From the NCBI GenBank assembly GCA_964016885.1, contig OZ024742.1, positions 91,388,001 through 91,452,000 on the forward strand: 64,000 bases of DNA, in the 5' to 3' direction. Position numbers and translations under genes: made by a program. Shown one piece after another: positions 8,539 to 62,135 of this stretch. Each line of letters begins with the position of its first letter. Within the stretch, counting starts at the first letter, position 1. The notes beneath the pieces are model-generated. The model did no database searches. It was given only the letters and a program-made list of their open reading frames with translations, and was not told where the DNA came from. This DNA is from Eledone cirrhosa (taxonomy: Eukaryota).

Positions 8539-8585
8539 ACTGCACTGATGAAGGGTAATCACCCAGAAAGATTAGTGTCTGCAGT
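8539..8585 (+). ncRNA. Type I hammerhead ribozyme motif (stem III mismatch)
   Basis: actgca CTGATGA a gggt-aatc-accc a GAAA gattagtg TC tgcagt: 6-bp stem I, 4-bp stem II, G.G mismatch in stem III. Confidence 0.7.
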
Positions 8586-17132: not shown

Positions 17133-17502
17133 GTGTAAATGAAAATAGAAGTGTCGGCTCTGTAGTCTAATTCAAGCTTTTGTAAAGGGAGTGTGCGATT
17201 TGATGATACGAGATGCGCCACCAAATATGGTACGTAGGTTCCAAGGAATATTCCACATTGTAATATGATATAATCAGGAAGACGGAGTATACGTACAATA
17301 ATGATATAGTTAGATGTAAAATGTTTGTAATTCATTTACTTCCGTAATCCGCTGTAAAAAAAATTACGTAATGCAACCATCATGCAATTACCAACACGAC
17401 CTCGTCAGACAGCATCGTTTTATCATTATACATACATACATATGTATATATATATATTTGCATACACATAGATACATGGATATATATGTATGTATGATGA
17501 TG

Positions 17503-18062
17503 TAGGATTTCGCTTCAAGCATAGCTTTGTACAATATGTATAAATATTTCGTATCTCCAAAGAAATACGGTTTTAGGAAGCCTTAGCTATTCAAACACCG
17601 GGGGGAGGAGGCTAACGCCCTCTGGTGATGTCCAGCAGAAGCAAGGGGGACAACCGTACTGAAATGCATAGACGGTTGTCCCCCTTGCTTCTGCTGGACA
17701 TCAACAGAGGGCGTTAACCACCTGGTGTTTGCATAGCTATGGCTTCGTAAAACCGTATTTTTTTGGAGATACGAAATATTTATACATATTGTATAAAGCT
17801 ATGCTTCAAGCGAAATCCTATTTCTTTTCTATTATAAGTTGAGCCAACTTATGCACCTTCATATGCTAATGTGATTAATCACCTCATTTACACAGACGAG
17901 AAAACTATATATTCTCGCCTGTCTTCTAGTCCAGCAGTCGCAAGCGGTGAGAGGGACCGTCCTGACGATGGCCAGTTAAGCCTGAAATGCATAGACGGTT
18001 GTTCCCCTTGCTTCTGCTGGACATCACCAGAGGGCGTTAGCACCCAGGTGTTTGCATAGCTA
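17503..18062 (+). mobile_element. Hammerhead-bearing retrozyme/Penelope-like element, family 1: fold-back plus partial tandem with 323-nt monomer
   Basis: Inverted arms 17503-17657 / 17672-17820; the segment ctgaaatgcatagacggttg...gcatagcta is repeated directly at a 323-nt interval. Confidence 0.8.
17956..17999 (+). ncRNA. Type I minimal hammerhead ribozyme
   Basis: accgtc CTGACGA t ggc-cagttaa-gcc t GAAA tgca TA gacggt: 6-bp stem I, palindromic stem III (ATGCAT), predicted cleavage after 17993. Confidence 0.85.
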
Positions 18063-18116
18063 CACACACACACACACACACACATACATATATATATATA
18101 TGCATATATATATATT

Positions 18117-18172
18117 TAATATAGAAAAGGCTTCTACAGGACTAGAACTGTTTCATTCGTAAGAAATCATCA
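18117..18172 (-). ncRNA. 5'-truncated hammerhead, family 5
   Basis: Minus strand: TGATGA t ttc-ttac-gaa t GAAA cag-ttctagtc-ctg TA gaagc; C3 and the 5' strand of stem I are lost at the microsatellite junction. Confidence 0.65.
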
Positions 18173-18208
18173 TACATACATACATATATATCAATGTATC
18201 TATGTGTA

Positions 18209-18880
<672 letters not shown>

Positions 18881-18896
18881 ATATATATATATATAT

Positions 18897-19163
18897 AACG
18901 AAGGAAATGTGGTAAGGAACCAGATGGAACAATACGCACCAAAGTACTCAATACTTAGGGTAGTAGAGTGGGTAATAGGAACAAGTAGGACCCCGACGGC
19001 TGAGCTGAAGCCGTTTCGACGGCTAATTCTGGACTAAATGAATTTTTTTACCCTGGTCAGTGAATAGCCGAATTTCTCAGGGGGTAATTCCATATATGGT
19101 AAAAGTGATTGTCACAAGGATTGGTCAAAAGTTTGTTGTCAAGACACACGATTCTATCATGGC

Positions 19164-19166
<3 letters not shown>
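18897..19166 (-). mobile_element. Family 4 element with long-stem-II hammerhead-like motif (18990-19085)
   Basis: Minus strand: acccc CTGAGA aatt cggcta...tagccg tc GAAA cggct-tcagctc-agccg TC ggggt; the 5' core is one nucleotide short of CUGANGA. Confidence 0.65.
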
Positions 19167-19221
<55 letters not shown>

Positions 19222-19226
19222 TATAT

Positions 19227-19423
19227 ATAGGAAAATGTTTAACCCCGACGGCAGAGCTGAAACTGTTTCGACGGCTATTTCTGGACTCCAGAAATAGCCG
19301 TCGAAACGGCTGGAGCTCTGCCGTCGGGGTTAAACATTTTCCTATTACCCACTCTACTACCCTAAGTATTGAGTACTCTGGTGTGTTACGGTCCATCTGG
19401 TTCCTTACCACACTTCCTTCGTT
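19227..19423 (+). mobile_element. Family 4 element, 5'-truncated with 119-bp palindromic fold-back
   Basis: Palindrome 19227-19345 centred on 19286; retains the GAAAcggc...gccgTCggggt 3' half; flanked by (TA)n. Confidence 0.8.
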
Positions 19424-20092
19424 ATATATATATATCTGGTGGGGTGCAAGCGTGTGTATGTGTATATATGTATGTGTGTGTGTACTCGACATATTTGTTT
19501 AGCGTATTAATGTTTGCGAGAAAGCATTGAAAATGAATGGAAAATGTAAACAGTAGTTTGTCTCTGAAAAGTGTAAGGTTTTAGTTTAACAAATTGTTTG
19601 AACAGAATTTATATGTAGATAAAGTTAGCGGCTGCGAAGTGGTACGTGGTATGTGAGTGTGTATTTGTCTGTGGATTGAAACCAATGTGTGCTTCCATGT
19701 TTGCATTTGTCAGATAACACTGTTTATAAATACTTTCGACTATGTAAGAAAGGACCTTTTATTTATTTATTTATTTTTTGTTCATTATAATTCTACTTGT
19801 TTACTCCCTAAACGTTTCTTTTACAAAAAGGAAAAACAAGGAGGAAGAAAACAAGATTTTGTAACATATAGACATAGTCACGTGTTTGTCCATTCATTTT
19901 TTTGTAAGGAAACGTCAGATTCTCTCTTATAATGTAAGTACAAATGTATTGAGTGGCAGGCGACCTTTCGTTAGGATATTTCTAACGAAAGACACTACCT
20001 GTGTGTTTCGATTAATTTTGAAAATGCTGTAGTAAAAAATATGGGGGAATTTACTAAAAAATTAAATTTTTCATCATTAGGTTAGTTTGTAA

Positions 20093-38755: not shown

Positions 38756-38798
38756 ACGCTGTACTAGTTTCAAGCTTATTAGCTATCGTCAGCAACGT
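38756..38798 (-). ncRNA. Type I minimal hammerhead ribozyme (family 2, intact)
   Basis: Exact reverse complement of 39015-39057. Confidence 0.85.
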
Positions 38799-39014
38799 AT
38801 ACCTTCCTGCCAGATTGTTGAACGTATATACTTACCTTATGCATATTAACGGCTGAGTGGCCCAATTTGCATATCGAGTGGGTTAATCGGCCGGGTGCAC
38901 CGAAAACGATAAACGGAAAAAATGAAACAAAATTTCATTTCCCACTCTTATGAAACTCAGCCGTTAATATGCATAAGGTAAGTATATACGTTCAACAATC
39001 TGGCAGGAAGGTAT

Positions 39015-39057
39015 ACGTTGCTGACGATAGCTAATAAGCTTGAAACTAGTACAGCGT
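39015..39057 (+). ncRNA. Type I minimal hammerhead ribozyme (family 2, intact)
   Basis: acgttg CTGACGA t agct-aata-agct t GAAA ctag TA cagcgt. Confidence 0.88.
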
Positions 39058-39373: not shown

Positions 39374-39439
39374 TATTTCATTATACATATTTCAAGGGCC
39401 ACCAAGGTAAACTATGGTGCGCTTTCATCAGATAAAATA
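39374..39439 (-). ncRNA. Type I hammerhead ribozyme (family 3)
   Basis: Antisense arm copy with CTGATGA core. Confidence 0.75.
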
Positions 39440-39587
39440 TAATATAGGTTATTTTATAAATAAATATTGACATACCCTTAAAAAATGCAACCATTCTACA
39501 ACTATCCAGGAGATTCCAACCAGAATGGTTGCATTTTTTAAGGGTATGTCAATATTTATTTATAAAACTAACCTATATTATATATTA

Positions 39588-39653
39588 TATTTTATCTGAC
39601 GAAAGCGCACCATAGTTTACCTTGGTGGCCCTTGAAATATGTATAATGAAATA
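39588..39653 (+). ncRNA. Type I hammerhead ribozyme (family 3)
   Basis: tattttat CTGACGA aagcgcacca-tagtttacct-tggtggccctt GAAA tatgta TA atgaaata; 8-bp stem I. Confidence 0.78.
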
Positions 39654-44899: not shown

Positions 44900-45564
44900 G
44901 TTTATCAAAGTTCTTTCGTTGCACATCTGCAACATCGTCAGTAGTGCTATTGTTTCCTCCCGTTACATTGTATTTCTACGCCATCTTTATTTAGTCTGTT
45001 TATATATTTATTTATTTATTTGTTTGTTTGTTTATTTTATTTTGTCTTCTTTGCGCATGCGTTTGCGTGTGTGTATAGTGTTTTGTTTGATGTGTGTTCG
45101 TGACTGGGTGACTGTGTATTGGTTAATGTATTCTATGTTTACTAGTGTGTGTTTATATGTGTTTGTTGTTATTGTGCTTGTGTATGTATTTATTTATTTA
45201 TTTATTTATCTATTTATTTATATATTTATACTTCTCTTAGGTCAGTGTTGTTTGTTTGGGTGTTGTTGTTATTCCATTCATTCTTTCTGTTTAGTCTTGG
45301 CCTTCTCAGTTCTATTTCACTGGCCTCGCTGATTTGCCTATCTGCTGGGTCATTTCTATGTTTAGATATTATTCTAATTTCTATGTTGTCTATGTTACCG
45401 TCGTGTTGTTGTCTGGCATGTTCGTATAGTACTGATCCGTTTTTTCGTCCTTTTAGTTCCCCCCAGTGTTGGTCTATCCTTTCACCTATGCTACGAGCTG
45501 TCTCGCCTATGTATGTTGTTGTCATGTTTCTGCAAGTACCCTCTGTACATCGTATGCTATATAT
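44900..45564 (-). mobile_element. 5'-truncated Penelope-like element: GIY-YIG endonuclease plus 3' region with hammerhead-like core
   Basis: Open frame IYSIRCTEGTCRNMTTTYIGETARSIGERIDQH...SVLYEH...RQISEASEI..RPRLNRKNEW (45564-45226) with CCHH residues; downstream CTGACGA t gttgca-gatg-tgcaac GAAA at 44941-44914; (TA)n at the 5' junction. Confidence 0.85.
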
Positions 45565-58499: not shown

Positions 58500-58613
58500 A
58501 ATATAGAAATGGTTTCTAGAGGACTAGAACTATTTTATTGAAAATAAATCAGCATTTCCTGATGATTTCTTTTGAATGAAACAGTTCTATTCTTATAGAA
58601 GCCATTTCTATAT
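58500..58613 (+). mobile_element. Family 5 fold-back with degenerate hammerhead (58552-58602)
   Basis: gcatttc CTGATGA t ttc-tttt-gaa t GAAA cag...tta TA gaagc; diverged inverted arms 58500-58554 / 58560-58613; third relic at about 62523-62571. Confidence 0.65.

Positions 58614-61838: not shown

Positions 61839-62135
<297 letters not shown>

What the first reader, a model, noticed from the sequence alone, without database searches (positions are those of the whole stretch)
17503..18062. 323-nt ORF-less monomer whose inverted arm starts at the predicted ribozyme cleavage site
Seen: GAAATGCATA|GACGG occurs at 17661 and 17984, defining a cleavage-to-cleavage unit 17671-17993 (323 nt). The inverted arm read on the minus strand begins at 17657 with ACGGTTG, one nucleotide downstream of the predicted scissile bond. 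Inference: reverse transcription ran to the 5' end of a self-cleaved RNA and then switched template, a genomic footprint of in vivo cleavage. The tandem junction implies a circular or multimeric template.
Basis: partly seen in the sequence, partly recalled or inferred. Interest (0 to 1): 0.82.

Follow-up and report, generated by a model that had tools for sequence, protein, structure and literature searches.

The report
Penelope-mobilised hammerhead retrozyme copy
This is one of well over a thousand copies of a small jumping element with a predicted self-cutting RNA motif, likely pasted in by Penelope-like retrotransposon enzymes; that its inverted arm starts beside the predicted cut site is likely chance, because sister copies are not broken off there more often than elsewhere.

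Summary
The sequence observation holds. There is a 323-nt ORF-less unit (17671-17993), a complete type I hammerhead at 17955-18000, and an inverted arm starting at unit position +2. The unit belongs to a dispersed family (1,410 intact ribozyme cores genome-wide). Of 56 copies truncated within a 35-nt window around the cut site, 0 start at +1 and 3 start at -1..+2 (4.8 expected). In a separate sample, 106 of 108 passages read through the site. The copies have Penelope-like element (PLE) architecture. Two 5'-truncated arms meet head-to-head by 1-5 nt microhomology. Outer ends fall at two fixed sites (about +119 and +160), often in (TA)n. One arm carries the extra ~40-nt tail in 37 of 39 insertions. 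An autonomous PLE in this genome follows the same one-tail rule (8 of 8 pairs). This matches published PLE biochemistry: both strands are primed at two internal sites, and ribozyme cleavage is dispensable. Tandem units share variants, favouring a repeatedly copied, probably circular, monomer (inferred; no RNA data). Verdict: new member of the non-LTR retrozymes; no footprint of in vivo cleavage.

The parts
17503..17657 (-). Inverted, 5'-truncated arm: unit positions 2-150. Its outer (RNA 3') end lies about 10 nt short of the family's long end (~+160).
17658..17658 (.). Head-to-head junction base (A). Both arms would predict C here, so it is either one untemplated base or a mutated 1-nt microhomology.
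17659..17670 (+). 5' end of the forward arm: unit positions 312-323 (GAAA, palindromic helix III, AUA). A half hammerhead without CUGANGA or helix II.
17671..17993 (+). One full 323-nt non-coding retrozyme unit, cut site to cut site.
17786..17830 (+). The ~40-45-nt 'tail' between the family's two fixed 3' ends (unit ~116-119, in the loop of the TTTATACA-TAT-TGTATAAA hairpin, and ~158-160). These are the inferred reverse-transcription start sites.
   Evidence: TA-repeat loose ends at 17534, 17795 and 17832 in another public data set
17955..18000 (+). Complete type I hammerhead. Helix I GACCGTC/GACGGTT; core CTGACGA 17962-17968; helix II GGC/GCC closed by a U-U mismatch (A-U in most copies); GAAA 17984-17987; palindromic helix III ATGCAT 17987-17992; predicted cut after AUA at 17993.
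17929..18022 (+). Long imperfect stem extending helix I (17925-18030 folds at -44.7 kcal/mol, z -3.9).
17994..18062 (+). Partial second unit (positions 1-69), ending at a (CA)n/(TA)n run. An atypically short 3' end for the family.

Best explanation
This is one copy of a high-copy, non-coding, hammerhead-bearing repeat (a non-LTR retrozyme) whose insertions were likely made by the reverse transcriptase and endonuclease of an autonomous Penelope-like element, from an RNA likely intact at the ribozyme site. Shown: copy number, tandem units, head-to-head arms with microhomology, two fixed outer ends paired one-short-one-long, scattered 5' ends, and read-through of the cut site. Inferred steps: (1) the enzyme nicks both strands of AT-rich or (TA)n DNA; (2) each freed 3' end primes cDNA, one at about +119 and the other at about +160; (3) both cDNAs stop at variable lengths (median about 240-260 nt) regardless of the cut site; (4) their 3' ends join by short microhomology or a few added bases, giving the palindrome. 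The template is most likely a monomer circle made earlier by dimer-type hammerhead cleavage and ligation and copied for up to 2-3 rounds (about 0.6); a linear tandem transcript is the alternative. The +2 start of this copy's inverted arm is a chance stop.
For: Family size: 2,715 first-look candidates; 1,410 intact cores of this and related subfamilies. No stop at the cut site: 0 of 56 at +1; 106 of 108 read-through; 693 matches intact from unit 300 to +35 against 67 hits for the non-intact pattern. Inversion in 52 of 77 loci picked by an internal 35-mer. Microhomology of 2 nt or more in 23 of 35 insertion-free junctions, 18% expected, p 6e-10. One short and one long end in 37 of 39 canonical pairs, none short-short, p 1e-9. 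An autonomous RT + GIY-YIG element with ORFs up to 1,218 aa shows the same (TA)n ends and one-tail rule in 8 of 8 resolved pairs. Compensatory changes in 8 of 12 hammerhead pairs across three subfamilies. Tandem units and inverted arms share diagnostic and rare alleles; no unit-specific alleles. Literature: PMC8557442 (inverted 5'-truncated copy, 30-40 bp tail at one end, (TA)n bias); PMC11167929 (both strands extended, two internal start sites bounding the tail, ribozyme mutants still insert).
Against: No partner enzyme was identified: none of three PLE-like families sampled shares sequence with the unit. The full-length ORF has no Pfam match; its assignment rests on visible motifs and an Atlas feature match. 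Cleavage, expression and circularity are untested. This copy is atypical at both outer ends (+150, +69); 24 of 135 sampled arms have such non-canonical ends. Only 75 of 160 canonical ends scored TA-rich in the next 30 nt by a crude measure taken after the aligned end. Allele sharing within insertions could also come from subfamily structure or later gene conversion.
Confidence: 0.85

Rival explanations
1. One reading: the reverse transcriptase ran off the 5' end of a self-cleaved RNA at the scissile bond and switched template, so the junction records in vivo cleavage.
For: The arm starts at +2, or at +1 if A17658 is a mutated C. The hammerhead fold is under selection. L091 and L112 also start within 1-2 nt of a cut site.
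Against: 0 of 56 truncations at +1 and 7 of 56 at -2..+3 against 8.0 expected. 2 of 108 passages stop within -3..+3, about what a smooth stop rate gives. The partner arm of the same insertion reads through two cut sites. PMC11167929 found uncleaved RNA to be the main substrate of a PLE in vitro. A small minority of cleaved templates cannot be excluded.
Confidence: 0.05
2. Same PLE-driven mechanism, but the template is a linear read-through transcript of a tandem genomic copy, not a circle.
For: Arms rarely exceed 2 units and the stop rate rises with length. A 10.8-unit array exists. A palindromic helix III cleaves poorly as a monomer (PMC4209133).
Against: No allele is restricted to the first or last unit across insertions (184 positions). 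The one long array found carries a variant in 10 units that has 1% family frequency, and shows internal duplications, so it is not the master. Repeated 5' truncation would shorten linear lineages, yet arms of 2.3-2.7 units occur. Only 40 of 2,632 candidates were scored, so a master array could have been missed.
Confidence: 0.3
3. The copies are truncated ends (pseudo-LTRs) of an autonomous PLE whose ORF was not found.
For: PLE architecture; 10.64898/2026.07.22.740005 reports homology between Xenopus retrozymes and pLTRs.
Against: Arms longer than one unit run into another unit, not into coding sequence. No similarity to the 3' ends of three PLE-like families.
Confidence: 0.07
4. The palindrome arose after insertion by DNA fold-back repair, or the element is a MITE with terminal inverted repeats.
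For: A few junctions are fold-backs at internal hairpins (L016, L060, L113). An inverted 42-nt duplication flanks this copy.
Against: The two arms end at different fixed sites in 37 of 39 cases, have uncorrelated lengths (rho -0.02, n 37) and are not mirror images at the centre.
Confidence: 0.03

Closest known systems
Metazoan non-LTR retrozymes (PMC7229834; bioRxiv 10.64898/2026.07.22.740005)
   Same: 150-450-nt non-coding tandem unit, low GC, type I hammerhead with short palindromic helix III, thousands of genomic copies, co-occurring PLEs. The U-U mismatch at the base of helix II is also described for axolotl HHR_Amex2.
   Different: Here mostly dispersed copies of 0.3-2 units with an inverted arm and a one-sided tail, not long arrays. 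Expression, cleavage and circles are untested. Sequence identity to published families was not tested.
Endonuclease-bearing Penelope-like elements (PMC8557442; Poseidon PAc of Anolis, PMC11167929)
   Same: Partial tandems, inverted 5'-truncated copy at the 5' junction, tail at one end, (TA)n/AT-rich targets, hammerhead upstream of two internal start sites (85-92 nt after the cut in PAc, about 119 and 160 here), insertion from uncleaved RNA.
   Different: No ORF. The tail is non-coding, whereas in PAc and in this genome's own autonomous element it encodes the ORF start. The driving enzyme is unidentified.
LINE-1 twin priming (recalled from own knowledge; not read here)
   Same: Both target strands prime cDNA; the arms join by microhomology and give an inversion.
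   Different: In L1 the second primer anneals at variable internal sites and the arms do not overlap. Here both start sites are fixed and the arms overlap to form a palindrome.

Membership tests
Type I hammerhead ribozyme | Core CUGANGA, GAA-A and NUH cleavage triplet | tested here: met
   17962-17993; core invariant in 21 of 21 aligned copies from three subfamilies, which were picked by that pattern
Type I hammerhead ribozyme | Helices I-III, open at helix I, supported by covariation | tested here: met
   90.8% of cells paired, 8 of 12 pairs with two-sided change, 0 of 500 shuffles; slid controls 17-48%. The sequences are related, so this is support, not a probability.
Type I hammerhead ribozyme | Match to an Rfam hammerhead model | tested here: not met
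   0 matches at gathering threshold; no E-value search was run
Type I hammerhead ribozyme | Self-cleavage after AUA | not testable with these tools
   needs an in vitro assay
Non-LTR retrozyme | 150-450-nt non-coding tandem unit with one type I hammerhead per unit | tested here: met
Non-LTR retrozyme | Copies with two or more complete hammerheads in tandem | tested here: met
   Met by the family (e.g. L017, L197, L292, the C2 array). Not met by this copy, which has one.
Non-LTR retrozyme | Expressed as linear and circular monomer RNA | not testable with these tools
   no RNA run was available to test
PLE-mobilised insertion | Inverted 5'-truncated copy next to the 5' end | tested here: met
   52 of 77 loci; two-armed copies are over-sampled by the pattern
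PLE-mobilised insertion | 30-40-bp tail at one end only | tested here: met
   37 of 39 canonical pairs in the family. This copy's own ends (+150, +69) are non-canonical.
PLE-mobilised insertion | Bias for (TA)n or AT-rich targets | tested here: met
   Seen directly in the printed 3' ends; 75 of 160 canonical against 4 of 28 other ends scored TA-rich. No genome-wide null.
PLE-mobilised insertion | Shared sequence with an autonomous partner | tested here: inconclusive
   None among 70 loci from three PLE-like families; other families not surveyed
Autonomous PLE | ORF with reverse transcriptase and GIY-YIG endonuclease | tested here: not met
   longest stop-to-stop frame in the unit is 77 codons

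The most novel reading that the evidence does not exclude
This family gives direct genomic evidence, beyond co-occurrence and pLTR homology, that an animal retrozyme is inserted by PLE machinery from a closed ribozyme circle. One PLE complex would prime both target strands at two fixed sites, one short and one long, on the same monomer lineage and roll past the ligated cut site. A 323-nt RNA with mapped start sites, beside an intact 1,218-aa PLE in the same genome, would be a minimal substrate for reconstituting PLE twin priming and circular-template copying in vitro.
Probability: 0.45. Interest if true: 0.5.

Novelty: new member of a known kind. Interest (0 to 1): 0.25.

Why it matters
As a single locus it is ordinary: one of more than a thousand copies of a known class, and the claimed cleavage footprint is not real. 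The family-level pattern has moderate value. The papers read propose PLEs as the mobilisers of animal retrozymes from co-occurrence, shared hammerheads and pLTR homology. Here the insertion scars themselves match a resident autonomous PLE and the in vitro behaviour of PAc: a one-sided tail, two start sites, head-to-head microhomology and no stop at the cut site. It also supports, in a genome, the in vitro finding that the template is uncut at the ribozyme when it is copied.

Tried and rejected
Rfam scan of the window: no match. Cleavage-site pile-up: tested in two partly overlapping samples, none found. The first 30 loci (best hits to the whole unit) had 5' ends clustered at unit 250-317; they were not used for statistics because the query forces full-unit coverage. 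Partner search: three PLE-like families, no shared sequence; the ORF beside L193 and the 800-nt insert in L093 are separate neighbours. Long array on C2 as master: rejected. Expression: no RNA holder listed. The three runs laid are contigs of unknown kind from one sample and show only that the family and its two TA ends occur there too. Pfam gave no family for the PLE-like ORFs. Earlier findings of the scan: none returned. Literature: 7 searches gave no description of this family; most subscription journals, Repbase and Dfam were not searchable, and no supplements were read, so it may already be catalogued. Minimum-energy folding does not produce the catalytic fold, as expected for a 2-bp helix III.

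Full report
Observation. The two GAAATGCATAGACGG motifs (17661, 17984), the 323-nt spacing and the inverted arm 17503-17657 starting at unit position +2 are all in the sequence. The layout is: inverted arm (unit 2-150), one A, then a forward arm of unit 312-323, 1-323 and 1-69. Only the second site is a whole hammerhead. The first is its 3' half, so this copy cannot release a monomer by itself. The unit has no ORF (longest stop-to-stop frame 77 codons). Rfam finds nothing at gathering threshold.

The ribozyme. 17955-18000 has the CUGANGA and GAAA core, a 7-bp helix I, a helix II of 4 bp (3 bp plus U-U in this copy; T at unit 299 is a 24% variant) and a 2-bp palindromic helix III, AUGCAU. In 21 copies from this family and two older relatives found in the genome, 8 of 12 pairs change on both sides and 90.8% of cells pair, against 17-48% for slid controls. 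The copies were picked by the core pattern and are related, so this supports the fold without measuring activity. PMC4209133 (passages read) describes this layout for metazoan type I hammerheads and says it works as a dimer.

The family. The window lies in a 3.0-Gb genome. Its size, contig count and TA-rich repeats recall an octopus-type cephalopod; that is from memory and was not tested. The unit has 2,715 first-look candidates, and 1,410 intact cores of this and related subfamilies exist. For an unbiased set I took the first 100 of 355 exact matches to an internal 35-mer, which gave 78 distinct loci; one old, poorly aligned locus (L031) was dropped from the counts. Arms differ from the column majority by 3.3%.

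Test of the cleavage footprint. A genome-wide pattern demanded an exact core at unit +15..+35 and non-matching letters at unit 300-303. It returned 67 hits, against 693 for the intact version. Eleven hits were internal indels and were dropped. Of the other 56, none begins at +1; 3 begin at -1..+2 (4.8 expected) and 7 at -2..+3 (8.0 expected). The window copy is not in this set. In the 35-mer sample, 106 of 108 passages of a cut site read through it, and 2 of 104 junction arms touch -1..+2. At that rate dozens of copies in the family would look like this one by chance. The only cluster was 20 of 56 at unit 311-317 (11.2 expected, p 0.005, chosen after looking). It lies just 3' of helix II and may be pausing at a hairpin; this copy's forward arm starts there (312).

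What the architecture shows. 52 of 77 loci have two arms joined head to head (such copies are over-sampled). Of 135 arms, 47 end at unit 114-127, 64 at 150-170 and 24 elsewhere. The aligned ends run a few bases into flanking TA repeats; the printed sequences put the true ends near 116-119 and 158-160. Among 39 inverted insertions with both ends canonical, 37 pair a short with a long end, 2 are long-long and none short-short (p 1e-9); 13 more had a non-canonical end. At the centre, 23 of 35 insertion-free junctions share 2 or more bases (18% expected), and 17 of 52 have added bases. Arm lengths are uncorrelated, and the stop rate rises from about 0.1 to 0.5 per 50 nt with length. An autonomous element in the same genome has 33,785 candidates and ORFs up to 1,218 aa, with YVDD and YIGET motifs and an Atlas feature match of 0.97 to RT and GIY-YIG clusters, but no Pfam hit. 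It carries its own hammerhead-like core, ends in (TA)n, and has a tail on exactly one end in 8 of 8 resolved head-to-head pairs (10 examined; 2 had an end whose motif was not found).

Mechanism. These features are the described PLE pattern: an inverted 5'-truncated copy, a 30-40-bp tail at one end and a (TA)n bias (PMC8557442, passages read). PMC11167929 (parts 1-2 of 4 read, the whole main text) shows a purified PLE protein nicking and extending both target strands. It starts at two internal RNA sites that bound the tail, and inserts equally well when the hammerhead is dead. I infer that both strands are primed, at about +119 and +160, that each cDNA stops at a variable length, and that the two 3' ends are joined. 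The sequence arrangement follows directly from this, but the steps themselves were not observed. The driving enzyme was not found: 70 loci from three PLE-like families share no sequence with the unit.

Circle or linear multimer. Across 199 distinct insertions, tandem units and inverted arms agree at diagnostic sites far more than independent draws would (position 98: 2 discordant of 77 tandem pairs, 22.9 expected). Rare alleles are shared 3 times against 156 unshared in tandem units, 10 against 223 between arms, and 4 against 3,327 between unrelated copies. No allele is tied to the first or last unit apart from two positions at the TA ends. Arms reach 876 nt. The one long array found (10.8 units) has private variants and internal duplications and is not the master. 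This favours a monomer copied more than once, as proposed for retrozyme circles in PMC7229834 (passages and Discussion read). Subfamily structure, gene conversion or an unfound homogeneous array could give the same pattern, and no RNA data were available. I put the circle at about 0.6.

Comparison and verdict. It works like a non-autonomous PLE and meets the sequence-level definition of a non-LTR retrozyme; activity and expression are untested. The bioRxiv preprint 10.64898/2026.07.22.740005 (parts 1-3 of 5 read, the whole main text) already argues that such elements derive from PLEs. PMC6765202 and PMC9977147 were seen as passages only; no supplements were read. Seven searches found no description of this family, but repeat libraries were not available. 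The locus is a new member of a known kind, and the cleavage-footprint claim is not supported. What remains of interest is the family-level scar evidence for PLE-driven two-site priming. Interest 0.25.

Noticed in passing
window 17461-17502 and 18168-18209: A 42-nt stretch outside the element is duplicated in inverted orientation on the two sides (1 mismatch, 1 gap). It occurs nowhere else in the loci held, and suggests a compound insertion or rearrangement that may explain this copy's atypical ends.
   Followed up: partly
window 18113-18173 (-) and 58559-58586 (+): Fragment and fuller copy of another hammerhead-like family (CTGATGATTTC..GAAACAGTT); the fragment abuts the right end of the finding.
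   Followed up: partly
window 18411-18891; 38765-39048: A 232-nt-arm palindrome, and an inverted pair from a third hammerhead-like family (CTGACGATAG..GAAACTAGT) with the same head-to-head look.
   Followed up: partly
window 18885-19435: Another palindromic element (149-nt arms, internal 61-nt repeat at 252-nt spacing) flanked by TA runs; probably a further PLE-type insertion.
   Followed up: no
window 39384-39643, 62040-62086, 8545-8573, 44908-44941: More hammerhead-like cores from at least three further families. The one at 44908 matches the core of the autonomous PLE-like family.
   Followed up: no
L123, L173; L115, L124, L162: Two separate copies carry the same deletion of the whole hammerhead (GGTGGGAGG joined to TTGTCC), and three carry 7-8-nt deletions at or beside the cut site; possible skipping of structure by the polymerase.
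   Followed up: no
L337:1961-5614 (-); G000:C28: Intact 1,218-codon PLE-like ORF with a long Asn-rich insert; many near-identical copies, so recently active; its tail encodes the ORF start, as in PAc.
   Followed up: partly
L231-L250, L184; L240:1-560: Older related subfamily (1,711 candidates) and a 310-nt tandem relative with helix III ACGCGT; they share an AT-rich stretch before the short end, a candidate enzyme-binding signal.
   Followed up: partly
L336:2132-5435 (G000:C2): 10.8-unit tandem array of the family with internal duplications, ending at the canonical short end.
   Followed up: yes
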